A DNA stretch of 32,000 bases from Vulcanisaeta distributa DSM 14429 (GTDB lineage Archaea > Thermoproteota > Thermoprotei > Thermoproteales > Thermocladiaceae): assembly GCF_000148385.1 (NCBI RefSeq), contig NC_014537.1, forward strand, positions 1,440,001 through 1,472,000, in the 5' to 3' direction. The notes under the pieces were generated by a model. It ran no database searches. It saw only the letters and a list, made by a program, of their open reading frames with translations, and was not told the origin of the DNA. How positions within the stretch are numbered: position 1 is the stretch's first letter; each line of letters begins with the position of its first letter. This document shows positions 13,843 through 28,514 of this stretch, one piece after another. The translations under genes and the position numbers were made by a program.

Positions 13843-14631
13843 GTGCAGGAGGTAAAGGTAAATGTGGTTAACATAATTAAACCAAGGGTTGAACTCGTAC
13901 TCACCTGGGGTAGTGAGGAGCTTGTCACTGCAATGACCGACGTTGTTTATAGGGCCTACTCAATCGAGGATGCGCTAAAGAGAGTTAGGGAGAAGCCCGA
14001 GTTGGTTGTTAGGAGGATAACGGGCTTCCTTAGGGATGGGCACCACAGCGTCCTTGAGTTTATGGGTGCGAGCTGGCTTGTTGAGGGTAGTAGGGCATTC
14101 ACGCATGAACTCGTTAGGCATAGGATAGCGAGTTACTGGCAGGAGAGTCAGAGGTACGTGGACTACACCAAGGGGCAGCTACGCTACGTACTACCACCAG
14201 GCCTAGCCAGCCAGTGGGCCGGCCACCTGGATGGTGTATCGCAGGCCTATGTGAAGGCTAGGGAGGGCTTCGCACCCGAGGACGCCAGGTACTTGCTCCC
14301 AAATGCCATGGCAAGTAGGGTTTGGGTTCAGATGAATGCGAGGGAGTTCTTCCTGAACTTCATACCGCTTAGGACGGGCTTGGGCGCCTTCCACGAGATT
14401 AGGCTCATTGCCTGGCTCATGTTCGACACATTGATTGATAAATTCCCAATAATCGCCAGGTGGGTGTGGGACAACCTACCCAAGCTACACCCAGACTACT
14501 GCAGGGGCATTGATAAGCTTGACAGCGCCTACGGAACAAGCGACTGCAGGATAGTGAGCATAAAGGACGCCTTCAACAAGTGGGGGATGGAGATCCCAAG
14601 GAGAATCACCGAACTCATCACTCACTCTTAA
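13843..14631 (+). CDS. thyX: FAD-dependent thymidylate synthase
   Basis: Contains the ThyX motif RHRIASYWQESQRY. GTG start. Confidence 0.9.
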   Translation: MQEVKVNVVNIIKPRVELVLTWGSEELVTAMTDVVYRAYSIEDALKRVREKPELVVRRITGFLRDGHHSVLEFMGASWLVEGSRAFTHELVRHRIASYWQESQRYVDYTKGQLRYVLPPGLASQWAGHLDGVSQAYVKAREGFAPEDARYLLPNAMASRVWVQMNAREFFLNFIPLRTGLGAFHEIRLIAWLMFDTLIDKFPIIARWVWDNLPKLHPDYCRGIDKLDSAYGTSDCRIVSIKDAFNKWGMEIPRRITELITHS

Positions 14632-16087
14632 TGAATGGTGTTATCATCGGTCTCGCAAATCCAGGGACTTGGTTAATCAGGGACCTAGGCAGTGGCTTGA
14701 ATATGTAGAGGGCCGCGATCAACACGGCTATGTTTATTAACTGTATTAATGGCCAGGTGATTGGCAGGTCGGAGATCAGTAACGTGCAGGAGGAGATCAG
14801 GGTCAGTACCAGGGATAAGCCAATAACCAAAACATCAATGCTTCGAATGCTCCACCGCTCACTAAACCAGAAGACCACTAAAGTTAATGCATATATTAAG
14901 TAATTACTGGCTATGGCCATGTAAATACCGAGGGAGTGAAAGAGTACGTATGCGAGTATGCCAAGGCCCAGGCCGGCGATGTTTGCGATTAATGCATACC
15001 AACCCCTACCAACGACCCAGTAGTAGGATGTGTATATATTGACTATGACGGCCAACGGCGTGTAACCGAGCAGTACCGAGGCGTAGGGTATTGACTTAAC
15101 ATACCCACCACTAATAATCCCTATGGTCGGCAGAATAGGCAGGGCAAGGACTATTAGCTGGGCGAGGAGGGATGCGGCTATGAAGGATGGTATTGCGTAG
15201 TCACGGAAAGTCCTACTAACGTCAATACCAATACCGAGCCCTTGGGACAACCTACTATTCATCACGGTGGATACGGCAGGGCCCAAGGCAGTTACGGCAT
15301 TAGCAATTGCGGATGCTAATCCATATATACCCGTGAATTCAGGGCCAAGGTATACATAGACAAGGTACATCAGTAAGTTATAGCTTAAGGTACCCATGTA
15401 GCCTAGTAACCACGATTGAAAACCAAACTCAAGAAACCCCTTTATCCTATTTTTCACGACGCCAACCCCAGCCAGTGGATCGGCAATGCCCCTAACAATA
15501 CCCAGGTAGTAAATGAACTGCGCCAGGGAGCCCAGGAACACGGATATGGCTAACGCATAGACGTTACGCATTATGATTATTAATAGTACTTGCATTACTC
15601 TCATGGCAAGTATGTTGATCGTCAAGCCCATGCCTTGAGACGCAACCCTACCCACTAACCATAGGTAGAGACCCAGGGCGCCCGCGATTGATTGAATGAA
15701 AACAACGCCCACGTATATATATGCCGTACCGAGCATCCACCTGGGTATACCATTACCAATGTAGAATGGCGTTGCCAACGCAATTAGTAGTCCGTAAATC
15801 ACGGCCATGATCAATGACATGAAGACCATGGCGGAGAAGTAAGGCTTAACGTCACCACCTCTGGCATACTCAATGGCGCCCTCCCTGGCAATGGCGCCCG
15901 ATATGCCGGGTATCGGTATTAAGGCACCTATTGAGTTTATTATGGCAAAGAGCGCGTTGTAGTATCCGTACTGCGTCAGTGGTATGTACCTGGTTAAGAC
16001 AACTATGTACGCAATGGCTAATGCGTAATTAGCCGCGGTAGGTAGGTAATTCAATACGACAGCTAAAACCGTGTTTTCCCTAACCAT
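14618..16087 (-). CDS. MOP-superfamily (Wzx-like) oligosaccharide/polysaccharide flippase
   Basis: 489 aa with about 14 TM helices and a Polysacc_synt-like layout. It sits next to sugar-nucleotide genes. Confidence 0.65.
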   Translation of the reverse strand: MVRENTVLAVVLNYLPTAANYALAIAYIVVLTRYIPLTQYGYYNALFAIINSIGALIPIPGISGAIAREGAIEYARGGDVKPYFSAMVFMSLIMAVIYGLLIALATPFYIGNGIPRWMLGTAYIYVGVVFIQSIAGALGLYLWLVGRVASQGMGLTINILAMRVMQVLLIIIMRNVYALAISVFLGSLAQFIYYLGIVRGIADPLAGVGVVKNRIKGFLEFGFQSWLLGYMGTLSYNLLMYLVYVYLGPEFTGIYGLASAIANAVTALGPAVSTVMNSRLSQGLGIGIDVSRTFRDYAIPSFIAASLLAQLIVLALPILPTIGIISGGYVKSIPYASVLLGYTPLAVIVNIYTSYYWVVGRGWYALIANIAGLGLGILAYVLFHSLGIYMAIASNYLIYALTLVVFWFSERWSIRSIDVLVIGLSLVLTLISSCTLLISDLPITWPLIQLINIAVLIAALYIFKPLPRSLINQVPGFARPMITPFIKSE

Positions 16088-16150
16088 TCACGAGAGTGCC
16101 ATTACTAACATTATTAAATATTAAGTATTATGCATGTATTAGTTTAAACC

Positions 16151-16158
16151 TTATAAAA
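16151..16158 (+). promoter_or_regulatory. TATA box (ttataaaa) 26 nt upstream of the ATG at 16181
   Basis: The same octamer occurs upstream of acs, at canonical leaderless spacing. Confidence 0.45.
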
Positions 16159-16180
16159 TCATTTTTGACACAGAGTATTA

Positions 16181-17248
16181 ATGTCAGTGAGTGGTGTCGT
16201 ACTTGTCGCTGGTGAAGGGACGAGGCTTAGGCCATTAACGTATACATTGCCAAAGCCATTAATACCAATAATGGGTAGGCCCCTGGTCACGAGGATAATA
16301 GAAGAGCTAATGGGTAATGGTATTAACAACATACATGTGGTTGTTGGTCACCTCGGCTTTCTATTTAAGCAGGTGCTTGGTGATGGGTCGGGTTTAGGCG
16401 TGAATATTAGGTATGTTGAGCAGAGGGAGAGGCTTGGTATTGCCCACGCGATACATAGGGCTGTTGAGGATGGGGCGGTCGGCGAATTAGTAGTTCACCT
16501 TGGCGATAACTACTTCGGCGAAGGGTTAGGTAGGTTCATTCGTGAGTTTAGGGAGGGGGATTACGACGTGTACGTTGTCCTAACAAGGCATAGGGACCCC
16601 ACTAGGTTTGGTAATGCCGTGATTAAGGATGGCAGGATAGTGAAACTCATTGAGAAGCCCAGGGAACCACCGCCAAATAGCTTCGTAATGACCGGGATAT
16701 ACATGTTCAGGGATTCCCACGACGTAGAGAGGGCTTTCAGCACGCTTAAGCCATCGGCTAGGGGTGAGTATGAGATAACAGACTTGATCCAGTGGTTCAT
16801 TGATAATGGCAGGAGGGTGGGTTACTCAATAACCAATAGTTGGTGGAAGGACATGGGGACTCCTCAGGACATACTTGACCTACTTTACCTAATGCTTGAT
16901 GAGGTCAAGCCAAGGATTGAGGGTGAGGTTAGGGGTGAGGTTAATGGCAGGGTTGTTGTGGAGCGCGGGGCGGTGATTGAGGGTAGGGTCCACGGACCAG
17001 CCTACATAGGTAAGGGCTCAATGGTTGGTAAGGACACCGTGATTGAGCACTACGTCGATATTGAATCAAACGTATCAATAAACGGCGGTAGTTTGAGCAG
17101 GTCACTGGTGCTCAGTGATGCATCGCTTGAGTTGGGTAGGGCTAGGCTCGTTGATAGTATTATTGGTCCTAAATCAAGGGTTAGGCTTAGCGGTGGTAAT
17201 TATAGTTTAATACTTGGTGAGGGTAACAGTATAATCAGCATTGCTTAA
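16181..17248 (+). CDS. Sugar-1-phosphate nucleotidyltransferase with a C-terminal left-handed beta-helix domain (RmlA/GlmU-like)
   Basis: N-terminal VLVAGEGTRLRPLTYTLPKPLIPI, with hexapeptide-repeat-like sequence in the C-terminal third. Confidence 0.85.
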   Translation: MSVSGVVLVAGEGTRLRPLTYTLPKPLIPIMGRPLVTRIIEELMGNGINNIHVVVGHLGFLFKQVLGDGSGLGVNIRYVEQRERLGIAHAIHRAVEDGAVGELVVHLGDNYFGEGLGRFIREFREGDYDVYVVLTRHRDPTRFGNAVIKDGRIVKLIEKPREPPPNSFVMTGIYMFRDSHDVERAFSTLKPSARGEYEITDLIQWFIDNGRRVGYSITNSWWKDMGTPQDILDLLYLMLDEVKPRIEGEVRGEVNGRVVVERGAVIEGRVHGPAYIGKGSMVGKDTVIEHYVDIESNVSINGGSLSRSLVLSDASLELGRARLVDSIIGPKSRVRLSGGNYSLILGEGNSIISIA

Positions 17249-18258
17249 TAACTATCCAGCAACTTTGGATTCTGCTCAAGGAGCTTCTTATACCACCTAA
17301 CAGTGAACCACCTATCCTCAGGCCTTAGGTGGCCGGTGAGTAATTCGTGGTATACCTGCTTAACACCATCATCCACATTATAAAGCACGGAGAAGTTCAG
17401 CACCTCCCTAATACGCTTAAAGCTAACTCTATAACTCCTGGCATCAACCATACCCCTAAACCTAACCTCACCACCAACGATGCCCTGCACAATCCTAGCC
17501 ATGTCAATAACTCTAAAGTTCTGCTCATCAGAGCCAACATTAAATACCATGCCATTAACCCTATCACTCGGTGCCTCAAGCACGGTATTAATGGCCCTAA
17601 CGACATCCATAACATGGACGAGAGGCCTCTCCTGCATGCCATCACCCTCAACGTAGATGACCCCCTCCGTGAATGCCGATAACGTCATGGCATTTATCAC
17701 CAGGTCAAACCTCATCCTAATCGATGGCCCGTAGACGGTGGCAAACCTCAATGCAGTCACAGTAAACCTATTACTTGCCAGGGGAAGCACATCCTTCTCA
17801 GCCAATAGGTTAGCCTTGGCGTAGGTCGTTAATGGGTTTGGCTCGGTATTCTCATCAGCAATACCACTCTGCCTACCATAGACACTACAGCTTGAGGCGA
17901 GTACGTACCTAGAGACCCCAACCTCACTGGCAAGCTTAGCCAACCTAGCCCTAGCCCTATAATTAATGTCGAGCGTCCACTGAGGATTCAACTCGCCAGC
18001 AGGGTCATTAGACAATGCCGCAAGATCCACAACAGCGTCAATGCCGTTAAGTACGTCCTTACTTATTGACCTGGTATCGGCTTTAACGAGTTCGAAGTTC
18101 CTCTCACCAATTACGTGCTTAAGCACATCATCGCCAAAAAACAACCTATCAACGCACCTAACGCCATAACCCTTCCTAAGTAGGTATGGCGTTAATAACG
18201 TGCCTATATAACCACCACACCCAGTGATCAGGACCTTCATGTTAATATTAACGTTCAC
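17245..18258 (-). CDS. NAD-dependent nucleoside-diphosphate-sugar epimerase/dehydratase (extended SDR)
   Basis: Rossmann motif VLITGCGGYIGT. 337 aa. Confidence 0.85.
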   Translation of the reverse strand: MNVNINMKVLITGCGGYIGTLLTPYLLRKGYGVRCVDRLFFGDDVLKHVIGERNFELVKADTRSISKDVLNGIDAVVDLAALSNDPAGELNPQWTLDINYRARARLAKLASEVGVSRYVLASSCSVYGRQSGIADENTEPNPLTTYAKANLLAEKDVLPLASNRFTVTALRFATVYGPSIRMRFDLVINAMTLSAFTEGVIYVEGDGMQERPLVHVMDVVRAINTVLEAPSDRVNGMVFNVGSDEQNFRVIDMARIVQGIVGGEVRFRGMVDARSYRVSFKRIREVLNFSVLYNVDDGVKQVYHELLTGHLRPEDRWFTVRWYKKLLEQNPKLLDSY

Positions 18259-19980: not shown

Positions 19981-20039
19981 GATCTGCCAGAGACGTCACT
20001 CCATCCACGCCTCAATCCATTATTAAGGCATGATAAACA

Positions 20040-20045
20040 TTTTTT
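20040..20045 (+). terminator. Oligo-T (T6) candidate terminator after PaREP1
   Basis: The T6 run lies 60 nt downstream of the stop. Archaeal termination commonly uses oligo-T. Confidence 0.25.
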
Positions 20046-20072
20046 AGGAACCCACGCATAATCGCGGACTCA

Positions 20073-20180
20073 GAAACACTTGATAAACCACTGCCTAAAC
20101 TGAATGCTAGAGATTGCATGAGCGTCAGCTACTTAAGACCTTAGTCAAGGCTAAATTAGTCCTGGAATCCTCAGTGAGGG
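20073..20180 (+). pseudogene. Decayed 5' fragment of a PaREP1 gene immediately upstream of the ATPase gene
   Basis: gaaacacttgataaaccactgcctaaac...ttagtcaaggctaaattagtcctgg aligns by eye with the intact copy gaaaccctcgagaagccattgcctaagcc...ttagtcgaggccagacttgccctcg at roughly two-thirds identity. It is interrupted by stops. Confidence 0.5.
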
Positions 20181-20199
20181 CTAAGTGCCGTGTTGAGTT

Positions 20200-21252
20200 G
20201 TGATAAGGCTAATAAGGAGGAGGATGGGGGTCTACGTCGTGGGGAGGGTTAGGCTGGGCTTTGCTAATTTAACGATTGAATTCGTGGATAGGGACCTCGC
20301 CCTTAAACTCATTGATGAATGGGCCGAGAAAAGCACCTTCCCAGTCCAAGTCATCTATGGACCAGAGGGTTGTGGTAAGACTGCGTGGCTTCTGCAGTCA
20401 GTGGAGTTGCTTAGGGATTACGGGTTCGAGGTTGTTTATGTGAATCCAATCAATAGGCTTGCCTTTGCTGAGGTAAGCATCAGTAGCCTTAGGGAGGAGT
20501 TCTTCAAGCTGGTTAAGGAGGCTATTGCACAAAGTGCGTTGGCTAGAATCGCATGGATAGCGTACAACGTGGTTTATGACGTAATCAAGGCGACCAGGGG
20601 AAAAATAGCCATCATCGTTGACGACGCATTCCAGGTAATCGGCATCAAGGAGTCCGCATTATACGTGAAGGCACTGCTAAACCTCATTGAGTACCCACCC
20701 GAGCATTATGAGAGGATAGTCACGATAGCAGCAACGAGCGAGGGCGTGTCGAGGAGAGAAATAGGAAGACACACGTGGGCTTGGATAATACCCATGTGGA
20801 ATATGCCGAAGAACGGGTTCAAGCAACTTTATGATCAAATACCGGGCAAGAAGCCGGACCTCGAAGAGGTCTGGCGGTTGACTGGGGGTAATCCGAGGAT
20901 GCTTGAGGAATTGTATAAAGCCAATTGGGATGCTGATAGGGTGATTGGGGAGTTGATTAAGGGTAAGGGCGTTGATGTTTTTGTAAGCTCGCTAAGTGAT
21001 AGTGAGAGGCGCATGTTGGCTAGGGCTGTTGAAGATCCAGACGTGCTATTCACGAGGGAGGGAATACCACTAATGAGCAAATTAATCGAGCTAAACCTGG
21101 TACTCGACATATCGGACAGGAAGCCATACCTATGGATAGACCAACCACCACCTGAGAAAGATGAGGAACTCGGGATTGGCAGGCGCGTCGCGTGGCAATC
21201 ACCACTGCATAGAGAAGCCGTGAGGAGGATGCTTGAAGCGCAATCTCAATAA
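20200..21252 (+). CDS. P-loop NTPase of an uncharacterised archaeal ATPase family (paralog A); likely true start at ATG 20224
   Basis: Walker A is YGPEGCGKTAWLLQ and Walker B-like is IAIIVDDAFQ. The C-terminal domain ends ...WQSPLHREAVRRMLE. About 55% aa identity by eye to the ORF at 30520-31530. Confidence 0.75.
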   Translation: MIRLIRRRMGVYVVGRVRLGFANLTIEFVDRDLALKLIDEWAEKSTFPVQVIYGPEGCGKTAWLLQSVELLRDYGFEVVYVNPINRLAFAEVSISSLREEFFKLVKEAIAQSALARIAWIAYNVVYDVIKATRGKIAIIVDDAFQVIGIKESALYVKALLNLIEYPPEHYERIVTIAATSEGVSRREIGRHTWAWIIPMWNMPKNGFKQLYDQIPGKKPDLEEVWRLTGGNPRMLEELYKANWDADRVIGELIKGKGVDVFVSSLSDSERRMLARAVEDPDVLFTREGIPLMSKLIELNLVLDISDRKPYLWIDQPPPEKDEELGIGRRVAWQSPLHREAVRRMLEAQSQ

Positions 21253-21283
21253 GTGTTTAAGGGAGGGATGCAGTGAATTAGCC

Positions 21284-21525
21284 GTGGATGCGGAGACCCT
21301 TGAGAGACCCCTACCTAAGCCAACCATGGAGAACTACATCATGTGAGGCTCCTGGATCATTGATTGAAGCCAAGCTATCCCTTAAATTCCTCAGCAAGGG
21401 CTTGGTTAGGGATGTCGCGGGTTGATGAGGAGAATTGAGGAACTGAAACCAAGAATCAAGTGGAGTGATGACTTGGAGAGTACGTTAAAGCCTTGAAGGA
21501 GGAGGCAGGTGTTGGTAAAAGTTAA
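21284..21525 (+). pseudogene. PaREP1 pseudogene with an internal deletion of about 0.3 kb plus stops and frameshifts
   Basis: VDAETLERPLPKPTMENYIM* and ...KLSLKFLSKGLVRDVAG match the PaREP1 N-terminus. The sequence then jumps directly to RRIEELKPRIKWSDDLE, which matches the C-terminus VRRIEELKPRIKWGNELE. The promoter-like gtttaagggaggg is retained at 21254-21267. Confidence 0.7.
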
Positions 21526-21554
21526 ACAATTCAATACTGATTTAGGGAGTCGAA

Positions 21555-22625
21555 ATGAGGGTATGCATACTTGAGGAATTCACAAGGCTTGGTGGCGGGC
21601 AGGTATATGCACTGCAGATGGCTAGGGCGTTAACGGAGCTTGGGCACTCCGTGGAGTTCGTGGTCACTGGTGACATCAAGGTTGACCCCAAATACCCAGT
21701 GAGGCACGTGGACGTGGGTTTCAAGGCGTCCTACGACCCAGCCTCACTACTCATTAACTACATAAACCATAGGAGGTTAAGGAGACTGCTGGGTAGGTAT
21801 GTCGATGACTGTGACCTAGTCATAAATAATCACCCAAACTACATACCATACAACAAAGGCCCAATAGTGCTTCACGGGCTCTCCTTCGTGGACTTCATAA
21901 TCGATGAGAATGGGAACATAAGAAACCAACTACTGTTTTGGGTACTCTCGAGGATTTACAGGATGTACGATGGCTCATACATGATCTACAACTCAAGGTA
22001 CACAATGAACCTAGCCAAGAAACTACTGCCAAAAATGGGCATAGAACCAAGGCTCGAGTACGTACTAAGCCCACACTACACAATAAGCACAGACAAGATA
22101 CCGGAGAAGGAGGACTACGTACTAACCCTGGGAAGACTCGAGTGGAGCAAGGGCTACAGGGAACTAATAAAGATAGCACCAAGAATAGGAAAGAGAATAA
22201 TTGTGGCAGGCAGGGCAGACGCGAGGGAATCAAGGGAGGTAATAAGGGCTCTCAGGGGCGTTAAAAACATAGACGTGATGCCGGACATAGACGAAAAGAC
22301 GAAGGAGGAACTATACAAACACGCATCAATATACCTACACCTCAAACCAAACGAGCACTTCGGGATAGCGGTACTAGACGCCATAGCCACGGCAACAATA
22401 CCAATAGTACCAAGGACAGGAGGACCTTGGACAGACATAGTGGAGGAGGGAAAATACGGACTAGGATACACAAACACCGAGGAAATACCACAACTAATAA
22501 ACAAAGCCGAAGAAATCAACAGAGAAAAGATATTCAAAGGCAGGGAAAGGTATAGCCCAGAGAACTTCAGGAGGAAACTCATAAAGGCATTATCAATGGC
22601 AATACACAGTAAAGATGCGGAATGA
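21555..22625 (+). CDS. GT4-family (group 1) glycosyltransferase
   Basis: N-terminal MRVCILEEFTRLGGGQVYALQMARAL, with the C-terminal motif EHFGIAVLDAIATATIPIV. Confidence 0.8.
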   Translation: MRVCILEEFTRLGGGQVYALQMARALTELGHSVEFVVTGDIKVDPKYPVRHVDVGFKASYDPASLLINYINHRRLRRLLGRYVDDCDLVINNHPNYIPYNKGPIVLHGLSFVDFIIDENGNIRNQLLFWVLSRIYRMYDGSYMIYNSRYTMNLAKKLLPKMGIEPRLEYVLSPHYTISTDKIPEKEDYVLTLGRLEWSKGYRELIKIAPRIGKRIIVAGRADARESREVIRALRGVKNIDVMPDIDEKTKEELYKHASIYLHLKPNEHFGIAVLDAIATATIPIVPRTGGPWTDIVEEGKYGLGYTNTEEIPQLINKAEEINREKIFKGRERYSPENFRRKLIKALSMAIHSKDAE

Positions 22626-22692
22626 ATTTAAGAATGGATGCTTGTGAATAATACTTAAATAATGATATTAGTATTGAAAATTACTACGCAAC

Positions 22693-25332
22693 ATGCAGTC
22701 AATCAATAGGCACGTCATTATTAATGAGATTGAAAAAAGGAAAATCATCATTAAATTGTTCTCTTTACCGTTATTAATTCAATTCTACATAGTATTTACA
22801 CTCGGCTACCTAAACATAACGCCACGGCTATATAATTATGAAGTAATACACATATCAGCAATAGCGTTCACGGTCGGGTTCTTTCTGTTCATGACACCAA
22901 CAATAACAAATCAAGTAAGGCAGGCAATAAACGACAAATACTACGCAGCAACACTACTAATATTCCTGGCAATAACCTACGAACTAACCTACCTAGCCAC
23001 AGTACCACCATACTACGGACTAAGCCTAGGGGCAAGCCTGGACACGGCAACTTACTTACAATCCTTCGCTTCATTAACATACTACAGGCAATTCCTGGTA
23101 AGCTTCGTAGGACCATTCTTTAGTGTTCACGCATCACCAATACTACTCCTAATATACCCAATCTACGAGGTATACCCATCAATATTCACATTAATGACAA
23201 TACAAGTCGTAATACTAATGCTACCAATACCACTAATGTATAAACTAGGCATGAAAATACTCAACAACCCAAAGCATGCACTGGCCACAGCACTACTATA
23301 CATACTATACCCATGGATAATAACCGCATACGCACCATTCGAAGTAGTCACGTTGGCAGGGTCATTCATGGCGATGACACTAATAACCATGTACCTAAAT
23401 GACAAAAAGGCTTATTGGGCATCATTAACCCTAGCCATGGCATCGATAGAATACGTACCATTATTCGGCATCGGACTAAGCATATACCAAGCACTATCAA
23501 AGGAACATAGAAAACTAGCCCTACTAACATTCATATACTCGATAGCATGGTTAATAGCTGACTACTACCTGGTAATGTACTTCAGTGGGCGGACACATAA
23601 CATATTCTCAAATCTATACGGAGCAGCCCTAAGCTCACTACTAACAAACATAACAAACAAACTACTAAACCCCAACACCACTAAGGCGCTTACTATAGAT
23701 CCACAAACGCGCACGGTCATGGACACAACCAACGTATTAAACGGCATAATTCAACAAGCCACCTCTCAATACAACATAAAGGTCCAATACGTGATAGAGG
23801 TATTTGGACCCCTGGCATTCATAAACTTCCTCGAACCACAAACAATACTACTAATGCCCTGGCTAGCGGCATTACTAACAAACTTCACACCATACTACAT
23901 ACCAAACGTATACTACACAATCCTCATAAGCGCAGTCGCACTGCCGGCAACAATATGGGCACTAAGGAGGCTAAAGATTGAAACGAGGAAAAGGGCACTA
24001 ACGGCACTACTAATAATAAACACAATAACGGGACTACTCACGGGACCACTAACACCACTCTCCGGGCTATACTACGGAAACACAATACCAAACTGGAACG
24101 CACCAGTGGCCAACCAATACGACTTAGCCATGATACAACTAGCCAATTATATACCATGGAACGCATCAGTGGCCGTACCAGCCACGGCAGTCCCCTGGTA
24201 CTCAATAACAAGGTATGGATGGGGAAACCACGGAGTACCATTCCTCGGACCAAACAGTAATACCCAGTACGTGGTTTATTCACCACTCGTGCCAACGGGA
24301 TACCCATACAACACAGGAGGTAGTGAATATGGCCCATATGCCTTTGATGATGGTGCATGGATACTGAAGGCAAACTACACAGGGCCAATAAAGATAATCA
24401 ACGGGTTCTACTACGAGAACACCTACATAATAAACCCAGTACTGCCAGGTACGTGGCAATACCCAATAGCCCAAATACCACCAACAAACATAACAATACA
24501 AATAACCACAGAAACAAAACCACAACAAGCAATAACACTACTAAACACAACACTACTCAAAACACAACTACAACAACCCCAAGGAATAGCCTGCGGAATA
24601 GGGCCTGGCGAAGTAATCATACCTGGAGGCACTTACATCGCACAACCAGTAACCATAAACGAAACAACAAGAATAAGCTCAATAACGGTATTCACATCAT
24701 ATGAGACCAACCTGGCCACAGCAGAATTAATAATATCAACAACACCAACACCTAACCAAAAAAGCACTATATACACATATACCTTTGGAACGCCATGGTG
24801 GTGCTCACCGCATTCCTGGACAACACCAATAACAGCAAACCCAGACATAACCCTAAAACCAGGAACATACTACATAATACTGACATTCCCAATACAAGGA
24901 CAAACAATATGCGAACAAATACCAAACACACCAAAGGCACTACTCATAAACGCAACAACAGGACAAATAATAAAACAACTACCATGCACCCTAGGAACAA
25001 TAATAACAACAAACCCACGAAGTAGTTTCAAGGTATCATTATCTAATGTAATAATAAATATATTAAGCAATGAAATACAGATAAATGGAAATGAAGAAAT
25101 AATGATAAGTACCGTAGTTAAAAATGTGTCAGGGCTTGTACTAACAATAAACTCACAAAATACACAATCTAATATTCAATTAACTATAAAACTAAAGGTA
25201 ATGACTCAAAACGCATCAGGCCCATTAATACCATGGTACTTAATACCTATCATAGGACTAATACCTGAGTACGTACTTCTTGCTCTAGCAATGTTAATGC
25301 TAGTTCCTAACCTAAGGAATTTAAGGTGGTAA
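22693..25332 (+). CDS. Large polytopic membrane protein: DUF2079-like (GT-C-type) N-terminal domain, a Thr/Asn/Pro/Gln-rich sequon-rich ectodomain, and a C-terminal TM anchor
   Basis: About 12-13 TM helices. The VHASPILLLIYPIYEVYPS...QVVILMLPIPLMY block resembles the DUF2079 core as I recall it. The distal half has at least 11 N-x-S/T sequons. The last roughly 35 aa form a hydrophobic anchor (WYLIPIIGLIPEYVLLALAMLMLV). Confidence 0.55.
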   Translation: MQSINRHVIINEIEKRKIIIKLFSLPLLIQFYIVFTLGYLNITPRLYNYEVIHISAIAFTVGFFLFMTPTITNQVRQAINDKYYAATLLIFLAITYELTYLATVPPYYGLSLGASLDTATYLQSFASLTYYRQFLVSFVGPFFSVHASPILLLIYPIYEVYPSIFTLMTIQVVILMLPIPLMYKLGMKILNNPKHALATALLYILYPWIITAYAPFEVVTLAGSFMAMTLITMYLNDKKAYWASLTLAMASIEYVPLFGIGLSIYQALSKEHRKLALLTFIYSIAWLIADYYLVMYFSGRTHNIFSNLYGAALSSLLTNITNKLLNPNTTKALTIDPQTRTVMDTTNVLNGIIQQATSQYNIKVQYVIEVFGPLAFINFLEPQTILLMPWLAALLTNFTPYYIPNVYYTILISAVALPATIWALRRLKIETRKRALTALLIINTITGLLTGPLTPLSGLYYGNTIPNWNAPVANQYDLAMIQLANYIPWNASVAVPATAVPWYSITRYGWGNHGVPFLGPNSNTQYVVYSPLVPTGYPYNTGGSEYGPYAFDDGAWILKANYTGPIKIINGFYYENTYIINPVLPGTWQYPIAQIPPTNITIQITTETKPQQAITLLNTTLLKTQLQQPQGIACGIGPGEVIIPGGTYIAQPVTINETTRISSITVFTSYETNLATAELIISTTPTPNQKSTIYTYTFGTPWWCSPHSWTTPITANPDITLKPGTYYIILTFPIQGQTICEQIPNTPKALLINATTGQIIKQLPCTLGTIITTNPRSSFKVSLSNVIINILSNEIQINGNEEIMISTVVKNVSGLVLTINSQNTQSNIQLTIKLKVMTQNASGPLIPWYLIPIIGLIPEYVLLALAMLMLVPNLRNLRW

Positions 25333-26105
25333 TTTTTAAATGTTATAAGGCTATACTTGATATTATGGCAAATATTATAATCAATTGCAGAAATAACCCT
25401 GTGGGATTAATTAAGAGAGCATTTATTTTCTTCATTAACGTTAAAGGTATTACATTTTATGACGAACTTCGTCTCTTAATAGCTGTATTAATATTTATAT
25501 ATTATATATTACGTAGGCTATTAAGGTTAGAAAATAAGGTTTATAACCTTTCGTATTACATACCAGGTAAAGATTCAGTATTAATAAGGTACCGTGATGA
25601 AGAATACGATGTGAAATTCATAATTAGACCTCGTAGTGGGGATTTCTACGATATATTAGGAGAACATTATGAATTAAATCATTGGCTAGCCTTAGTACTT
25701 AACACCACTAAACATGCTGTGATTGTTGATGTTGGTGCTTATATAGGTGGTTATACCGTTAGGGCTTGTAAAAAGGCTAAGCGAGTAATTGCCATTGAAC
25801 CCTTAGAAAGCGCCGCAACTCTACTCCGTAAGAACGTAGAACTTAATAATTGTAATAACGTAGTATTAATAAAAAAGGCCGTATGGAAGGAACAAGGCAA
25901 GGTTCCTATGAAAATTGTTGAGTTTAATGAAGAAGAATCAAGGATAGATCATAATGGTAACATAATCATTGAAGCAGATACTCTCGATAATATAATAAAG
26001 GAATTGGGGATTGACCGCATAGACTTTCTAAAAATTGATATTGAGGGTGCCGAGGCAGAGGCAATACATGGAATGAAAGAAACCTTAAAAATACGAATTA
26101 TCTAA
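25326..26105 (+). CDS. FkbM-family SAM methyltransferase, N-terminal 259 aa, interrupted at an A5 run; likely true start at the internal Met MANIIINC
   Basis: VIVDVGAYIGGYTV (SAM motif) and IDFLKIDIEGAEAEAI are FkbM/Methyltransf_21 hallmarks. The ORF ends prematurely at the TAA at 26103-26105. Confidence 0.7.
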   Translation: MVIFKCYKAILDIMANIIINCRNNPVGLIKRAFIFFINVKGITFYDELRLLIAVLIFIYYILRRLLRLENKVYNLSYYIPGKDSVLIRYRDEEYDVKFIIRPRSGDFYDILGEHYELNHWLALVLNTTKHAVIVDVGAYIGGYTVRACKKAKRVIAIEPLESAATLLRKNVELNNCNNVVLIKKAVWKEQGKVPMKIVEFNEEESRIDHNGNIIIEADTLDNIIKELGIDRIDFLKIDIEGAEAEAIHGMKETLKIRII

Positions 26106-26248
26106 TGATAGAGCTAAGACCTAGCACATTATGGTTAATTAATGAGTTAAATAAGTTAGGGTTTAAGGTATTAGATTGTGTAAATTATGGCAACTTTATT
26201 AACGTGTTTCTACACAATGAGGGTAAACTAAATAGTACACACTTATAA
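26105..26248 (+). CDS. 46-aa continuation of the FkbM methyltransferase in the -1 frame (MIELRPSTLWLINELNKLGFKVLDCVNYGNFINVFLHNEGKLNSTHL)
   Basis: This is my own translation; the ORF is below the ORF-track size cutoff. The sequence looks like the usual FkbM C-terminal strand-helix-strand. Its ATG overlaps the upstream TAA (taATG). Confidence 0.55.
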   Translation: MIELRPSTLWLINELNKLGFKVLDCVNYGNFINVFLHNEGKLNSTHL

Positions 26249-26278
26249 ACTTAATATAATCTTAGTATTAGTAAGCCC

Positions 26279-27265
26279 ATGCCATCCTACGGATTACTAA
26301 TATTTAATAGGAATGAAGTAGTTGGTACGCTTCGCCTCATTAAGTTACTTAATAATACCGTAGATGAAATCGTGATTATAGACTCATCTGACCCACCCAA
26401 GTATAGGGAGCTCATGGATCGATTAATGAAGTATGGCTCAAAGATAATAGTATTCAAGACTATACCATTAGGACATGTAGAGCCGCTTAGAATGTATGGA
26501 TTAAGTAAAATAAGTACTGACTACGTGTTACTTCTCGATACTGATGAAATACCTAATGATAAGCTTATCATTAATTTAAGGCGATATAATGAATATGATG
26601 GGTATATAATTAATAGATACGAGGTTGCTCTTAGAACTATTAGTGAGCAAGTACGGTTATTTAAACGAAATAAAGTACTATTTAGAGGCATAATTCACGA
26701 AAATCCAGAAATACTAGGTAGCAAGGCCAAGCTTTCTAACGGTGAGTATATAATCCATTTAGCTGGTAAACTTAATGCATCAGCATCTAATTATAGCAAG
26801 TACATTATAATAGAGTTATTTTCAAGATATCCTTACTTACTTAATAATCTATTAATTAATAGATTTAAAAGGAAAACCTATTATAAAAGTACGACAATCG
26901 TTCATGTACTTAATGCTATTTTAATATTAATTTACTTTAAAGCCATGAGTTTATTAAAGCCAGGAGATGCCGAGATGTGGTTTTCTTATTTTATGGATTT
27001 ACTTAAAATATTCATAAATATCCCCAGTAAATATAGAAAAATCTTGATGAATATTTCTCAGGAAATATACGAAAATAATGGCATCATTAATTATCTATGT
27101 TTAAACAACCCAAACATCGTTGAATCATTGACTGGAACATATACATGGGATATACCTGGGCATAAAGTCTTTCAGTACCTCATACTCTATAGGTATAAGT
27201 ATAAAAAGTGCGCACAGGATTTTAATGATGTCCTTAATGCCTTTCACCTAAAACCTCATAAATAA
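26279..27265 (+). CDS. GT2-family glycosyltransferase with an uncharacterised C-terminal half
   Basis: LLIFNRNE...EIVIIDSSDP and the DxD-type LLLDTDEIP. Confidence 0.7.
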   Translation: MPSYGLLIFNRNEVVGTLRLIKLLNNTVDEIVIIDSSDPPKYRELMDRLMKYGSKIIVFKTIPLGHVEPLRMYGLSKISTDYVLLLDTDEIPNDKLIINLRRYNEYDGYIINRYEVALRTISEQVRLFKRNKVLFRGIIHENPEILGSKAKLSNGEYIIHLAGKLNASASNYSKYIIIELFSRYPYLLNNLLINRFKRKTYYKSTTIVHVLNAILILIYFKAMSLLKPGDAEMWFSYFMDLLKIFINIPSKYRKILMNISQEIYENNGIINYLCLNNPNIVESLTGTYTWDIPGHKVFQYLILYRYKYKKCAQDFNDVLNAFHLKPHK

Positions 27266-28514
27266 AATCCAGGGTTTCCTGAGCAACCTTCTCCCACGAA
27301 TCATGCTCCTTCAAGAACCTTCTCGTTCTCTCATCCTCATGTTCCTTAACATACTCATCAATACTCATGTTAATTATTCTTTTCGTTTCATGAGCTAAAC
27401 TACTTATATCGTACTCACGAACCATGTGTACAGGCTTTAATCCACCATACACGAGCCTTATTGCCGGTATATCATAAGCAACGGCAGACGTACCTAACGC
27501 GATCGTCTCAAGAATAACTAATGGAAACGAATCGACGTGGGAAGGATATATTAAAGCCTTTGCGCGTGCTACATAATCGTACAATTCATTAATGGGTCTA
27601 TAACCCATGTACTTCAAGTTATTAGGTAAATTACGTAAAAATCTATCCCTTATTCTATTAGATATCGGGCCAAAGACTAGAATATTAATATCATGCAAAT
27701 ACTTAGCCACCTTTATTATGTCCCATGCACCCTTAGCAGGGGTTAATCTCCCAAAGAAAACGGCGTAATCCCTCTTATCATAGATGTTACGGTATCTATA
27801 GATTAAGTCCTTATCGAAGGCATTGCCGTAACGATAAATTCTTAACTTAACTCCATACTTATTCGATAATTTTTCAATATTCGAATAGTAAATAGGTACT
27901 TGCGAAACAGATGCTATGCCACGAAGCATGCCGCCCTTCATAGCCATACTGTAAATGGCTTTAGTAAGTCTATGTTCTAAAAATACGTATGAATCCTCAA
28001 GCAACCCATAAATACCATCAACATGCCTATACCCTCTTCCAAACCATTTAAAGGTCCTAAAGGGTTCATTTTGAAGAACCTTTATTATCGGGACATTTAA
28101 CTTCTTAGCAAGGTATAAGGCATATACAAGTGAGATACCACTTTCATGAACATCTAATATTACATCAAACTTAATGTTATTATGCATTAAATCATTAGTT
28201 AACTCATTGATTATAAATTTACAGTAAACTTCATTATTAATTAAAAATTTATATAATGCCATGAGCATCTTTGATATATTATTACTATAATTAAGGCATA
28301 GCTCTTGAAAACGATAATTAATGTCATGAACCATTAATCCATATTTTCTAATTTCATCCAATGAATTAGACGTAAAATGAAATGGTTCTTCAAATACTAA
28401 AATATCATGTCCATAAATGTTTGTTAATATTTTTAATACCTCAACAGCATGCCTATGTGAACCACCAGGTAAGCCATCAATTATTGCAAGTATTTTCATA
28501 ACCGTTATCTTCAA
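27234..28514 (-). CDS. GT4-family (group 1) glycosyltransferase; likely true start at ATG 28499 (MKILAII)
   Basis: FFGRLTPAKGAWDIIKVAK...PSHVDSFPLVILETIALGTSAVAYDIPA. Confidence 0.8.
   Translation of the reverse strand: MKITVMKILAIIDGLPGGSHRHAVEVLKILTNIYGHDILVFEEPFHFTSNSLDEIRKYGLMVHDINYRFQELCLNYSNNISKMLMALYKFLINNEVYCKFIINELTNDLMHNNIKFDVILDVHESGISLVYALYLAKKLNVPIIKVLQNEPFRTFKWFGRGYRHVDGIYGLLEDSYVFLEHRLTKAIYSMAMKGGMLRGIASVSQVPIYYSNIEKLSNKYGVKLRIYRYGNAFDKDLIYRYRNIYDKRDYAVFFGRLTPAKGAWDIIKVAKYLHDINILVFGPISNRIRDRFLRNLPNNLKYMGYRPINELYDYVARAKALIYPSHVDSFPLVILETIALGTSAVAYDIPAIRLVYGGLKPVHMVREYDISSLAHETKRIINMSIDEYVKEHEDERTRRFLKEHDSWEKVAQETLDFIYEVLGERH

What the first reader, a model, noticed from the sequence alone, without database searches (positions are those of the whole stretch)
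21830..25020. 3.2-kb block whose + strand is starved of T (and locally of G), with a knife-edge end inside an ORF
I counted bases by hand in 100-nt samples:

| Sample | Location | A | C | G | T |
|---|---|---|---|---|---|
| 24481-24580 | anomalous block | A+C = 89 | (with A) | 2 | 9 |
| 22021-22120 | anomalous block | 40 | 25 | 22 | 13 |
| 2101-2200 | glyA control | 25 | 23 | 25 | 27 |

The bias begins inside the GT4 gene at about 21.7-21.8 kb. It ends abruptly at about 25,020, which is 104 codons before the stop of the 879-aa ORF; from there ordinary AT-rich sequence resumes. Third codon positions are almost all A or C (ATA, CTA, ACA, CCA, GGA, AAC, TAC).

Possible explanations:
1. Foreign DNA from a replicon with extreme strand asymmetry.
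2. Cumulative deamination of the complementary strand. C->U and A->hypoxanthine on that strand give G->A and T->C on the strand read here, which is exactly an A+C enrichment.
3. Selection for an mRNA that cannot fold, since A and C do not pair.

I do not recognise this as a described property of such loci.
Basis: partly seen in the sequence, partly recalled or inferred. Interest (0 to 1): 0.72.

Follow-up and report, generated by a model that had tools for sequence, protein, structure and literature searches.

The report
Inherited A/C-ending codon block, glycan genes
Two neighbouring surface-sugar genes of the hot-spring archaeon Vulcanisaeta use almost only codons ending in A or C, the reverse of the rest of the genome. 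The oddity is inherited across the genus, ends exactly at a recombination junction, and is now slowly eroding rather than being made.

Summary

**What it is**
- The window is Vulcanisaeta distributa DSM 14429.
- The block is the 3' three-quarters of a GT4 glycosyltransferase gene plus the core of a DUF2079 membrane-protein gene, inside a glycan-biosynthesis cluster.
- The bias is synonymous. Third codon positions are A53 C27 G14 T7, against A17 C21 G32 T28 in normal genes, and the shift appears in every codon family.
- It is not caused by amino-acid composition, by the replichore, or by high-expression codon usage.

**How old and how widespread**
- Every Vulcanisaeta orthologue has it. That includes a second allele type that is saturated at synonymous sites relative to the window type.
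- Acidilobus homologues lack it.
- The same codon class occurs in glycosyltransferase genes of an unlinked V. souniana cluster and in V. thermophila.

**The knife-edge**
- The edge at 25,019-25,023 is a recombination junction.
- Identity to V. souniana falls there from 96-100% in the last 200 nt to about 64%.

**What drives it**
- Polarised substitutions run against the deamination idea: 157 A->G/C->T-type changes against 43 G->A/T->C-type.
- That ratio is close to neutral decay under the ordinary spectrum.

**Best reading (about 0.45):** a relic strand-asymmetric signature carried by an accessory glycan-gene pool, now decaying. Selection on codons (about 0.25) and past in-situ mutagenesis (about 0.15) remain open. 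No donor was found.

The parts
21555..22625 (+). GT4-family glycosyltransferase gene (356 aa). The first ~86 codons use ordinary codons; the rest use A/C-ending codons.
   Evidence: Pfam Glycos_transf_1 (E = 2.7e-17) and Glyco_transf_4 (E = 8e-10). The same profile along the gene is seen in five lineages.
21813..22625 (+). Biased part of GT4. It is T-starved and A-rich but keeps G.
   Evidence: Change point for A/C3 at codon 87 (0.47 to 0.70). Change point for T3 at codon 140 = 21,972 (0.17 to 0.03). Third positions in 21741-22625 are A40 C29 G24 T7.
22626..22770 (+). Unbiased AT-rich interruption: the 67-nt spacer plus the first 26 codons of the DUF2079 ORF.
   Evidence: Third positions of codons 1-36 are A33 C22 G19 T25. 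Change point at codon 27. In V. moutnovskia and V. thermophila the spacer is 600-700 nt and is also unbiased.
22693..25332 (+). 879-aa ORF encoding a DUF2079 polytopic membrane protein. About 15 N-terminal helices, a beta-rich C-terminal domain and a C-terminal anchor helix.
   Evidence: Pfam PF09852, E = 1.9e-21, residues 113-494. Topology is taken from a low-confidence AlphaFold model, pLDDT 45. No relative with a solved structure.
22771..25019 (+). A/C-ending core of DUF2079, starved of both G and T at third positions. The bias is strongest in the last 550 nt.
   Evidence: Third positions A53 C27 G14 T7. 30-codon windows reach A+C 96-100% near 24,478-25,000. No run of four or more T in 2.2 kb.
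25019..25023 (.). The knife-edge: junction between the conserved core and the variable tail plus cassette.
   Evidence: Change points for C and T content fall at 25,019 and 25,023. Identity to V. souniana is 0.96-1.00 in 24,800-24,999 and 0.64 from 25,000. Nucleotide homology with V. thermophila ends at 25,014. Alignment of eight sequences.
25020..25332 (+). Variable C-terminal tail of the ORF (104 codons). It is AT-rich, with only 26-52% amino-acid identity between species.
25326..28514 (.). AT-rich cassette (GC about 30%): FkbM-type methyltransferase (25326-26105 +), GT2 (26279-27265 +), GT1-type (27234-28514 -).
   Evidence: Pfam. Composition. Kept in V. moutnovskia and JCM 16159. Replaced in V. 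souniana, in the L090 genome and in V. thermophila.
14618..18258 (.). Upstream part of the same glycan cluster, with ordinary codon usage: Polysacc_synt flippase (14618-16087 -), NTP transferase (16181-17248 +), epimerase (17245-18258 -).
   Evidence: Pfam for the window flippase ORF. The NTP transferase and epimerase are named from the precomputed Pfam hits on their orthologues in V. moutnovskia and V. souniana. Composition.
21133..21238 (.). Left arm of an inverted repeat. Its partner is 30531-30636. The arms are the 3' ends of two ATPase_2 paralogues (20200-21252 + and 30520-31350 -) that bracket the 9.3-kb segment from GT4 to the carbamoyltransferase.
   Evidence: 106 nt, 72% complementary. 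Pfam ATPase_2.

Best explanation
**Shown**
- The block is the conserved core of a surface-glycan biosynthesis module in Vulcanisaeta distributa: the 3' three-quarters of a GT4 glycosyltransferase gene plus a DUF2079 membrane-protein gene.
- Its A+C-rich sense strand comes from synonymous codon choice. A is preferred over G, and C over T, in every codon family.
- These genes belong to a distinct A/C-ending codon class. Other glycosyltransferase genes in Vulcanisaeta glycan clusters share it.
- The signature is inherited. It was already present, and probably more extreme, in the ancestor of the sampled Vulcanisaeta lineages.
- The abrupt 3' end is where homologous recombination joins this core to a hypervariable tail and downstream cassette.
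- Present-day substitutions erode the bias, at roughly the ratio expected from the genome's ordinary spectrum. Nothing is now driving G->A or T->C here.

**Inferred**
- The signature was written earlier by a uniform, strongly strand-asymmetric nucleotide-level pressure.
- That is the pattern produced when C and A are deaminated on a strand that spends long periods single-stranded, as in vertebrate mitochondrial DNA.
- It most likely arose while this accessory gene pool lived in another replicon or donor lineage of Vulcanisaeta-like hosts.
- It then spread and persisted through recombination among species.
For: **1. Synonymous, not amino-acid driven.** Shown.

**2. Not replichore-related and not a high-expression codon set.**
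- Coding-strand A/C3 is equal for + and - genes.
- The ribosomal protein genes S4e and L24 in the window are G/T-ending.

**3. Inherited and syntenic.**
- All orthologues (V. souniana, V. moutnovskia, V. thermophila, JCM 11216, JCM 16159, L090, metagenome-assembled genomes) have T3 of 3-17%.
- Synonymous divergence is like that of neighbouring genes.

**4. A second allele type also has it.**
- It sits in a Vulcanisaeta-like host: GT4 71% and flippase 63-67% identical to the window.
- Its DUF2079 is only 46% identical to the window and 55-59% identical to Acidilobus homologues.
- Its third positions are nevertheless A53 C28 G12 T7, with normal flanks.
- Four-fold sites between the two types are near saturation.
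- Acidilobus copies use host codons.

**5. It is a codon class.**
- RSCU correlates at r = 0.80-0.87 among the DUF2079 core, the GT4 3' part, a GT4+GT2 pair in an unlinked V. souniana cluster, and a V. thermophila GT1-type gene.
- The DUF2079 core gives r = 0.22 with normal genes and 0.05 with the AT-rich island.

**6. A uniform pressure on a host-type background.**
- The odds of A over G rise 2- to 7-fold, and of C over T 3- to 11-fold, in every family.
- Genome-specific preferences such as AGG >> AGA remain.
- There is no significant difference between conserved and variable amino-acid sites.

**7. A strand-level signature in one lineage.** In V. thermophila the convergent minus-strand FkbM gene next to DUF2079 is 88% G/T-ending. 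The + strand is therefore A+C-rich across both genes, 10,050-13,450.

**8. Decay.**
- V. distributa group: 157 changes away against 43 toward. p = 2e-16 against 1:1, and p = 0.07 against the neutral 5:1 expectation.
- Rare variants of the second allele type: 68 against 27.
- Flanks are balanced.

**9. A recombination junction and recent exchange.** Window and V. souniana are about 95-100% identical over most of 19,300-25,000 (with a lower patch at 20,200-20,900), only 79% identical over 13.8-17.2 kb, and 64% identical beyond 25,000.

**10. Weaker analogues exist.**
- In Pyrobaculum spherical virus, minus-strand genes are A/C-ending (A34 C29 G20 T17) and + strand genes are G/T-ending.
- The mitochondrial precedent is reviewed in PMC3269012.
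Against: - **No donor or element was found.** There are no homologues in IMG/VR, INPHARED phages or PLSDB plasmids. None of the 24 metagenome loci analysed, out of 79 recovered, shows the bias in its flanking genes as well.
- **No mobility signs.** The window has no tRNA gene, and no integrase was recognised among the ORFs scanned.
- **Two saturated allele types share almost the same third-position composition.** That looks more like an equilibrium than two coincident stages of decay.
- **Selection is hinted at in the second allele type.** C->T per C site is 2.4-fold lower in the block than in flanking genes (p = 0.00045). The away:toward ratio falls with allele frequency, 39:16, then 21:12, then 8:10 (trend p = 0.05).
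- **The bias respects reading frames.** It spares the spacer and the 5' ends of both genes, which a purely regional strand-level signature would not do unless those pieces were replaced later.
- **Decay is slower than expected.** The block has decayed about half as much as the neighbours' synonymous rate predicts. This needs either introgression or weak constraint.
Confidence: 0.45

Rival explanations
1. Selection maintains A/C-ending codons in this gene pair, and in other glycan-cluster genes of Vulcanisaeta.

Possible targets of selection:
- decoding only by the G34 and U34 tRNAs, avoiding wobble-read NNU codons and NNG codons that depend on C34;
- deliberately non-optimal, slow or low translation of a polytopic glycosyltransferase-like protein and its partner;
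- a sense RNA free of T-tracts and structure.

On this view the excess of A->G and C->T changes on recent branches consists of slightly deleterious mutations that selection has not yet removed.
For: - The bias is bounded by reading frames. It ends at the stop codon in the second allele type, is absent from the spacer, and spares the first 26-86 codons of both genes.
- Two allele types that are saturated relative to each other have the same composition, A53 C27 G14 T7 and A53 C28 G12 T7.
- C->T per C site is 0.093 in the block against 0.225 in flanking genes, p = 0.00045.
- The away:toward ratio falls with derived-allele frequency, p = 0.05.
- Four-fold sites evolve no faster, and perhaps slower, than in neighbouring genes.
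- There is no run of four or more T in 2.2 kb of a gene rich in hydrophobic codons. Oligo-T acts as an archaeal termination signal (own knowledge).
Against: - Substitution flux is far from the 1:1 expected at equilibrium, on internal as well as terminal branches. It does not differ significantly from the neutral expectation.
- There is no significant excess of A/C-ending codons at conserved amino-acid sites (odds ratio 1.1-1.5, z <= 1.6).
- Ribosomal protein genes use the opposite codons.
- In V. thermophila the adjacent opposite-strand gene carries the same DNA-strand polarity. Codon-level selection does not predict that.
- At 85 C predicted folding is negligible for all the mRNAs tested.
- The bias rises gradually across two genes towards the junction.
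Confidence: 0.25
2. Strand-specific mutagenesis in place. The minus strand of this segment is, or was, preferentially single-stranded, so it lost C and A by deamination.

Possible causes:
- antisense transcription starting in the promoter-rich AT-rich DNA at the junction;
- the segment serving repeatedly as the resected homology arm during cassette exchange.

For: - The polarity and chemistry fit, and the odds shift is uniform over codon families.
- The bias is strongest next to the junction and fades leftwards over 3.3 kb.
- TATA-like motifs are about 10 times denser in the AT-rich island than in the block, 5.9 against 0.5 per kb.
- In the V. souniana second cluster the A/C-ending genes also lie just upstream of an AT-rich gene.
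- In V. thermophila a leftward-transcribed gene and the DUF2079 antisense strand share one polarity.
- The locus does recombine at this junction.
Against: - G->A and T->C are not elevated now. Per-site rates in the window/V. souniana pair are G->A 0.02, T->C 0.019, A->G 0.028 and C->T 0.077.
- In the second allele type, G->A and T->C rates equal those of flanking genes.
- The spacer is homologous among four species at 74-96% identity and is unbiased.
- The co-oriented gene that overlaps the stop codon is unaffected.
- The same class occurs gene by gene in another locus, interleaved with normal genes.
- Ribosomal protein genes, which are presumably the most transcribed, show only modest skew. 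Transcription would therefore have to be extraordinarily strong here.
- My rough estimate, based on published deamination rates recalled from memory and not on any tool result, is far less than one deamination per kb per recombination event.
Confidence: 0.15
3. The block is a recently acquired foreign island that still carries its donor's codon usage.
For: - It has atypical composition and sits beside another atypical (AT-rich) block.
- The glycan cluster is bracketed by repeated ATPase_2 and PaREP1 genes.
- DUF2079 has moved between Acidilobus and Vulcanisaeta.
Against: - The block is present, syntenic and biased in every Vulcanisaeta examined, at 65-97% amino-acid identity.
- Its synonymous divergence is like that of its neighbours.
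- The left boundary inside GT4 is the same in five lineages.
Confidence: 0.03
4. The block is ordinary. It is a by-product of amino-acid composition (a Thr/Pro/Gln/Asn/Ile-rich membrane protein) or of a replichore-wide skew.
For: - Membrane-protein genes here are somewhat richer in A/C-ending codons, 0.54-0.64.
- The C-terminal domain is rich in Thr, Pro, Gln and Asn.
Against: - Every synonymous family shifts.
- The Acidilobus homologues have a broadly similar first- and second-position composition and no bias.
- Neighbouring + strand genes are G/T-ending, and there is no strand effect across 93 genes.
Confidence: 0.02

Closest known systems
A+C-rich L strand (sense strand of most genes) of vertebrate mitochondrial DNA. 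It is attributed to deamination of C and A on the H strand while that strand is single-stranded during strand-displacement replication (PMC3269012).
   Same: - Same polarity and chemistry.
- The sense strand is rich in A and C.
- G and T are starved at third codon positions.
- Codon usage is reshaped in all families.
   Different: - Here it is a 3.2-kb patch, and a class of scattered genes, inside a 2.4-Mb archaeal chromosome, not a whole replicon.
- There is no present-day excess of G->A or T->C.
- Reading-frame 5' ends and the spacer are spared.
Atypical-codon accessory genes of surface-polysaccharide loci. Examples are the 'class III' horizontally transferred genes of E. coli and O-antigen or capsule clusters (own knowledge), and the variable, recombining archaeal N-glycosylation clusters of Haloferax (PMC5867893).
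   Same: - A glycan-biosynthesis cluster built as a mosaic of compositional classes.
- A hypervariable cassette next to a conserved core.
- Recombination breakpoints inside genes.
- Exchange between species.
   Different: - The known cases are simply AT-rich (low GC), close to strand parity. The adjacent island at 25,020-28,600 is of that kind.
- This class instead breaks strand parity strongly (A >> T, C > G) at nearly normal GC.
- It is older than the species.
Strand-specific codon usage in genomes with strong replication skew, such as Borrelia burgdorferi. There leading-strand genes are G/T-ending and lagging-strand genes A/C-ending (own knowledge).
   Same: The same G/T-ending against A/C-ending axis of codon-usage variation between genes.
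   Different: In the window and related loci, genes on both strands are G/T-ending on their own coding strand. The axis therefore does not follow replication direction.
Transcription-associated deamination of the non-template strand (own knowledge). The reviews seen were listed but not read.
   Same: It is a gene-scale, strand-asymmetric C->T and A->G process. It may explain the ordinary G/T-ending habit of Vulcanisaeta genes.
   Different: It predicts a G+T-rich coding strand. The block has the opposite polarity, so dominant antisense transcription would be needed.
Strand-level keto skew of Pyrobaculum spherical virus (Globuloviridae), measured here.
   Same: It is a replicon of a Thermoproteales host. 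The few opposite-strand genes are A/C-ending (63%) and majority-strand genes are G/T-ending (60%).
   Different: - The skew is much weaker than 80-100%.
- There is no homologue of GT4 or DUF2079.
- It is not a demonstrated donor.

Membership tests
GT4 glycosyltransferase (GT-B fold, Pfam Glyco_transf_4 + Glycos_transf_1) | An N-terminal Glyco_transf_4 domain and a C-terminal Glycos_transf_1 domain, both above the curated cut-offs. | tested here: met
   63.3 bits (cut-off 26.4) and 39.4 bits (cut-off 28.5).
DUF2079 (PF09852) membrane protein | A Pfam match above the gathering score over the polytopic N-terminal domain. | tested here: met
   77.1 bits (cut-off 28.2), residues 113-494.
GT-C fold glycosyltransferase (my recollection of the Pfam clan of DUF2079) | A GT-C fold with an extracytoplasmic catalytic loop. 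| tested here: inconclusive
   The AlphaFold model is too poor for a fold search (pLDDT 45). No sequence relative has a solved structure. No other Pfam family matched at E <= 10.
Recently acquired genomic island | Absent from, or not syntenic in, close relatives. | tested here: not met
   present and collinear in all Vulcanisaeta examined.
Recently acquired genomic island | A tRNA or integrase at the border, or direct-repeat attachment sites. | tested here: not met
   There is no tRNA in the window. The only repeats are ATPase_2 and PaREP1 gene remnants. No integrase appears among the Pfam hits.
Replication-associated (leading/lagging) strand skew | One DNA-strand polarity shared by neighbouring genes of both orientations and by non-coding DNA. 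| tested here: not met
   neighbours are G/T-ending on their own coding strand in both orientations, and the spacer is unbiased.
Single-strand deamination signature (mitochondrial type) | The sense strand is enriched in A and C, and depleted in G and T, at free sites in all codon families. | tested here: met
Single-strand deamination signature (mitochondrial type) | The polarity is a DNA-strand property, so opposite-strand genes are G/T-ending. | tested here: inconclusive
   This holds in V. thermophila, where the minus-strand FkbM gene is 88% G/T-ending. However, FkbM-like genes on the + strand of the second-allele contigs are also T-ending, and no other case was available.
Single-strand deamination signature (mitochondrial type) | An ongoing excess of G->A and T->C substitutions on the sense strand. 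| tested here: not met
   43 toward against 157 away.
Translationally optimal (high-expression) codon class | Codon usage shared with ribosomal protein genes. | tested here: not met
   S4e and L24 have A/C3 of 41% and 32%. RSCU correlation of the DUF2079 core with the ribosomal protein genes is r = 0.34.
Codon bias maintained by accuracy selection (Akashi-type) | Preferred codons enriched at conserved amino-acid sites. | tested here: inconclusive
   Mantel-Haenszel odds ratios 1.10-1.46, z = 0.4-1.6.

The most novel reading that the evidence does not exclude
The A/C-ending class is not a passive relic. It is the footprint of a mechanism specific to hyperthermophilic archaea, in one of two forms.

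**(a) An undiscovered replicon.** Vulcanisaeta glycan genes circulate on a virus or plasmid that replicates through long-lived single strands at 85-90 C. This writes a mitochondria-like signature onto the genes before they recombine into chromosomes.

**(b) A recombination arm.**
- The conserved core is the homology arm for cassette exchange.
- Its G+T-rich complementary strand is the 3' tail left after resection of an incoming fragment.
- That tail is either damaged by deamination, or favoured because RecA/Rad51-family recombinases pair G+T-rich single strands best (own knowledge of in vitro work on RecA and yeast Rad51).

Either form would link surface-glycan diversification to a strand-asymmetric DNA transaction.
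Probability: 0.15. Interest if true: 0.8.

Novelty: new variant of a known kind. Interest (0 to 1): 0.5.

Why it matters
- **Scale of the effect.** A genus-wide, gene-specific reversal of synonymous codon usage this large is uncommon. Third positions are 80-100% A/C in a genome whose genes average 44%. I found no description of it for Thermoproteales or for DUF2079.
- **A compositional marker.** It marks a pool of accessory glycan genes in Vulcanisaeta.
- **An ordinary explanation for the knife-edge.** The edge is a recombination junction. The locus is exchanged between species, so it is probably under diversifying pressure, for example from viruses.
- **A test bed.** Synonymous sites here are far from equilibrium. 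That makes the locus useful for separating mutation from selection at synonymous sites in a hyperthermophile.
- **If a donor replicon exists.** It would be a hyperthermophilic element with mitochondria-like strand asymmetry.
- **If selection maintains the bias.** It would be a case of codon-level control of glycosylation genes in archaea.

Tried and rejected
- **Amino-acid composition as the cause.** Rejected by per-family codon tables.
- **Replichore or strand effect.** Rejected.
- **High-expression codon set.** Rejected using the two ribosomal protein genes in the window.
- **Recent horizontal transfer.** Rejected by synteny and synonymous divergence.
- **Acidilobus as the biased donor.** Rejected, because its copies use C/G-ending host codons.
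- **Caldivirga as a genome with this usage.** Rejected on a 21-kb sample.
- **Viral or plasmid carriers.** Three IMG/VR scans and two tblastn searches found nothing.
- **A regional strand-level domain as a general rule.**
  - Supported only in V. thermophila.
  - The minus-strand methyltransferase in L090 is ordinary AT-rich.
  - FkbM-like genes on the + strand are also T-ending.
- **Opposite skew of a 'right arm'.** The carbamoyltransferase gene is G/T-ending at 67%, but it is not an outlier at third positions.
- **Accuracy selection.** Not significant.
- **A-run or T-run statistics as a test of antisense read-through.** Uninformative.
- **Structure prediction for DUF2079.** Too poor to use, because the alignment had only 9 sequences.
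- **Sampling other parts of the V. distributa genome.** Its proteins are not in the look-up collection.
- **Parsimony at deep nodes.** It is prone to bias under skewed composition, so I relied on the closer comparisons.

Full report
**1. The observation**

Read codon by codon, the anomaly is a property of third positions.
- In 22801-25020 they are A53 C27 G14 T7.
- In the 3' part of the upstream gene (21741-22625) they are A40 C29 G24 T7.
- Ordinary genes of the window, on either strand, are about A17 C21 G32 T28 on their own coding strand.
- Block against nine + strand genes gives p = 1.7e-107.

Change-point fits place the boundaries as follows.
- Onset in the upstream gene: codon 87 (21,813) for A/C-ending codons and codon 140 (21,972) for loss of T.
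- 5' limit in the 879-aa ORF: codon 27 (22,771).
- Right edge: 25,019-25,023.

The block is therefore two biased coding stretches, separated by 145 nt of ordinary AT-rich sequence.

**2. What the genes are, and where the window comes from**

- The upstream gene is a GT4 glycosyltransferase.
- The 879-aa ORF is a DUF2079 polytopic membrane protein. It has a beta-rich C-terminal domain and a terminal anchor helix. The topology comes from a low-confidence model.
- Both lie in a glycan-biosynthesis cluster (the NTP transferase and epimerase are named from precomputed Pfam hits on their orthologues):
  - flippase, NTP transferase and epimerase upstream;
  - FkbM methyltransferase, GT2, GT1-type and carbamoyltransferase downstream.
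- An ATPase_2 protein of the window is 100% identical to one of Vulcanisaeta distributa with a 2,374,137-bp genome, that is, DSM 14429.

**3. Ordinary explanations excluded**

- **Amino-acid composition.** Every synonymous family shifts: ATA 90% against 38%, CTA 60% against 14%, CAA 94% against 30%, GAA 76% against 17%, GGA 55% against 10%, AAC 86% against 35%.
- **Replichore.** In 93 other Vulcanisaeta genes, coding-strand A/C3 is 0.444 for + genes and 0.437 for - genes. DUF2079 orthologues lie at 0.73-0.82, z = 3.0-4.1.
- **High expression.** The ribosomal protein genes S4e and L24 in the window are G/T-ending. Their RSCU correlates at 0.83 with normal genes and at 0.34 with the block.
- **mRNA folding.** The sense RNA folds half as strongly at 37 C. 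At 85 C all the mRNAs tested fold at about 0 to -3 kcal/mol per 150 nt.

**4. The bias is inherited**

- Orthologues in V. souniana, V. moutnovskia, V. thermophila (65% amino-acid identity), JCM 11216, JCM 16159, a further genome (L090) and metagenome-assembled genomes all carry it, in the same synteny.
- The profile along GT4 is the same in five lineages: codons 1-60 ordinary, 61-130 intermediate, the rest T-starved.
- Four-fold-site divergence of the block is similar to that of neighbouring genes.
- The block is therefore not a recent import.

**5. A second allele type**

- Yellowstone metagenome contigs (L007, L010-L015; 90-99% identical to each other) come from a Vulcanisaeta-like host.
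  - GT4 is 71% identical to the window.
  - The flippase is 63-67% identical.
- Their DUF2079 is only 46% identical to the window's, and 55-59% identical to Acidilobus homologues.
- Their third positions are nevertheless A53 C28 G12 T7, the GT4 is biased in the same way, and the flanks are normal.
- Four-fold sites between the two allele types are essentially saturated: 0.51-0.56 identical against 0.46-0.49 expected.
- Acidilobus copies use that host's C/G-ending codons.
- The signature therefore cannot be simple retention from the common ancestor of the two alleles under today's substitution regime. Either something maintained it for a long time, or it was written on both.

**6. It is a codon class, not a single locus**

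- An unlinked glycan cluster of V. souniana contains these biased genes:
  - a GT4 gene with third positions A45 C33 G18 T4;
  - a GT2 gene at A/C3 0.72;
  - a small ORF at 0.74.
- In that cluster the biased genes are interleaved with normal genes and one AT-rich gene.
- A V. thermophila GT1-type gene is at 0.73.
- RSCU correlations among these genes and the window block are 0.80-0.87. The DUF2079 core gives 0.22 with normal genes and 0.05 with the AT-rich island.
- Within the class the odds of A over G rise 2- to 7-fold, and of C over T 3- to 11-fold, in every family. Genome-specific preferences such as AGG >> AGA are kept.
- The bias is equally strong at conserved and variable amino-acid sites.
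- This pattern points to a uniform nucleotide-level pressure acting on a Vulcanisaeta-type codon background.

**7. The knife-edge**

- Window and V. souniana are about 95-100% identical over most of 19,300-25,000, with a lower patch at 20,200-20,900 (down to 0.60) and dips at 22,800 and 24,700.
- They are only about 79% identical over 13.8-17.2 kb.
- Identity is 0.96-1.00 in 24,800-24,999 and falls to 0.64 from 25,000.
- Nucleotide homology with V. thermophila stops at 25,014.
- Amino-acid identity among orthologues falls there from 80-90% to 26-52%.
- The eight-sequence alignment shows the conserved ...CTACCATGCACCCTAGGAACAATAATAACAACAAAC giving way to unrelated sequence.
- The downstream cassette differs between V. 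distributa and V. souniana. It is shared with V. moutnovskia and JCM 16159.
- The edge is thus a recombination junction between a conserved core and a hypervariable tail plus cassette. The core itself has recently moved between species. Variable, recombining glycosylation clusters are known in Haloferax (PMC5867893).

**8.

Polarised third-position changes in the DUF2079 core. Polarity was assigned by the majority state among the five sequences, so the two stem counts assume that the root lies near the centre of this star-like tree:

| Lineage or branch | Away from A/C | Toward A/C |
|---|---|---|
| window | 15 | 1 |
| V. souniana | 12 | 2 |
| window + V. souniana stem | 20 | 4 |
| JCM 11216 | 32 | 10 |
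| JCM 16159 | 20 | 10 |
| JCM 11216 + JCM 16159 stem | 12 | 8 |
| L090 | 46 | 8 |
| **Total** | **157** | **43** |

- The 'away' changes are mainly A->G and C->T.
- The total differs from 1:1 at p = 2e-16. It does not differ significantly from the 5:1 expected if the genome's ordinary spectrum acts on so biased a sequence, p = 0.07.
- Flanking genes are roughly balanced, 90 against 74.
- Among rare variants of the second allele type the ratio is 68:27.
- G->A and T->C are therefore not in excess. The bias is being eroded.
- A simple decay model is my own arithmetic on the figures. It fits an ancestor with nearly pure A/C third positions and about one third of sites hit per lineage since the V. 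thermophila split. That is about half the rate of neighbouring genes. Introgression or weak constraint would explain the difference.

**9. Evidence that keeps selection alive**

- In the second allele type, C->T per C site is 0.093 in the block against 0.225 in flanking genes, p = 0.00045.
- The away:toward ratio falls with allele frequency: 39:16, then 21:12, then 8:10, trend p = 0.05.
- The bias respects reading frames and spares the spacer and the gene 5' ends.
- The two saturated allele types have nearly identical composition.

**10. Evidence for a DNA-strand-level origin**

- In V. thermophila the convergent minus-strand FkbM gene next to DUF2079 is 88% G/T-ending. The + strand is therefore A+C-rich continuously over 10,050-13,450.
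- The polarity and end-state are those of single-strand deamination in vertebrate mtDNA (PMC3269012).
- A Thermoproteales virus, PSV, shows a weaker strand-level version: + genes A14 C26 G29 T31, minus-strand genes A34 C29 G20 T17.
- No carrier of these genes was found in viral, phage or plasmid collections.

**11. Verdict**

| Reading | Weight | Comment |
|---|---|---|
| Amino-acid composition or replichore artefact | 0.02 | Refuted |
| Recent transfer | 0.03 | Refuted |
| Ongoing or past in-situ strand-specific mutagenesis | 0.15 | Ongoing complementary-strand deamination is refuted as a current process |
| Selection maintaining A/C-ending codons | 0.25 | Still open |
| Relic strand-asymmetric signature carried by an accessory glycan-gene class and spread by recombination, now decaying | 0.45 | Best reading |

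The origin of the signature is inferred, not shown.

Noticed in passing
window 20200-21252 (+) and 30520-31350 (-); inverted repeat 21133-21238 / 30531-30636: Two ATPase_2 paralogues in inverted orientation bracket the 9.3-kb segment from GT4 to the carbamoyltransferase. In the second-allele contigs the flippase orthologue lies on the other side, inverted, which suggests inversion or shuffling through these repeats. The truncated right-hand copy is itself T3-poor (third positions A33 C24 G32 T11).
   Followed up: partly
window 21417-21478 and 19868-19929: A 62-nt direct repeat (79% identical). It is a remnant of a second PaREP1 3' end just upstream of GT4. V. souniana has an intact second PaREP1 gene there (L088 9413-9964).
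   Followed up: partly
window 19,300-25,000 against L088 (V. souniana): A tract of about 5.7 kb that is 95-100% identical between two species over most of its length (lower at 20,200-20,900). Their flanking genes are 79-87% identical. This indicates recent interspecies recombination that ends exactly at the compositional edge.
   Followed up: yes
window 25,020-28,600: An AT-rich island (GC 23-36%, third positions close to strand parity: A35 C14 G12 T38). It carries FkbM, GT2 and GT1-type genes. It is conserved in V. moutnovskia and JCM 16159 and replaced by unrelated cassettes in V. souniana, L090 and V. thermophila.
   Followed up: partly
whole window and related loci: Ordinary Vulcanisaeta genes break strand parity at third positions in the opposite sense (G > C, T > A on the coding strand), whichever strand they lie on. 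This could reflect transcription-linked mutation or translational preference. It was not investigated.
   Followed up: no
L005 (V. thermophila) 12594-13297 (-): An FkbM-type methyltransferase split into two ORFs in the draft assembly, with third positions A4 C8 G36 T52. This is the most extreme G/T-ending gene seen. It lies convergent to, and directly after, the A/C-ending DUF2079 gene.
   Followed up: partly
L093 (V. souniana, contig BMNM01000011) 2685-21005: A second large co-directional glycan cluster with five tandem ATPase_2 genes and two PaREP1 genes. It is a gene-by-gene mosaic of A/C-ending genes (12476-14381, 4313-4894), an AT-rich gene (14381-15568) and normal genes.
   Followed up: partly
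L015 6022-8733 against L006, L008, L027 and L068: The DUF2079 of the Yellowstone Vulcanisaeta-like population is closer to Acidilobus proteins (55-59%) than to other Vulcanisaeta copies (43-46%). This indicates transfer of the gene between orders. Acidilobus carries many diverse copies of about 880 and about 1180 aa.
   Followed up: partly
window 18375-19205 (+): A coiled-coil protein made of IEDRINKIENRI-like repeats. The DNA at 18,601-18,800 has only 9 C in 200 nt (GC skew 0.73). Long spurious ORFs lie on the opposite strand.
   Followed up: no
L002 and L090 (draft assemblies with JCM-type accessions): The DUF2079 and GT4 genes are broken into several ORFs in these drafts. These are probably sequencing frameshifts rather than pseudogenes.
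   Followed up: no
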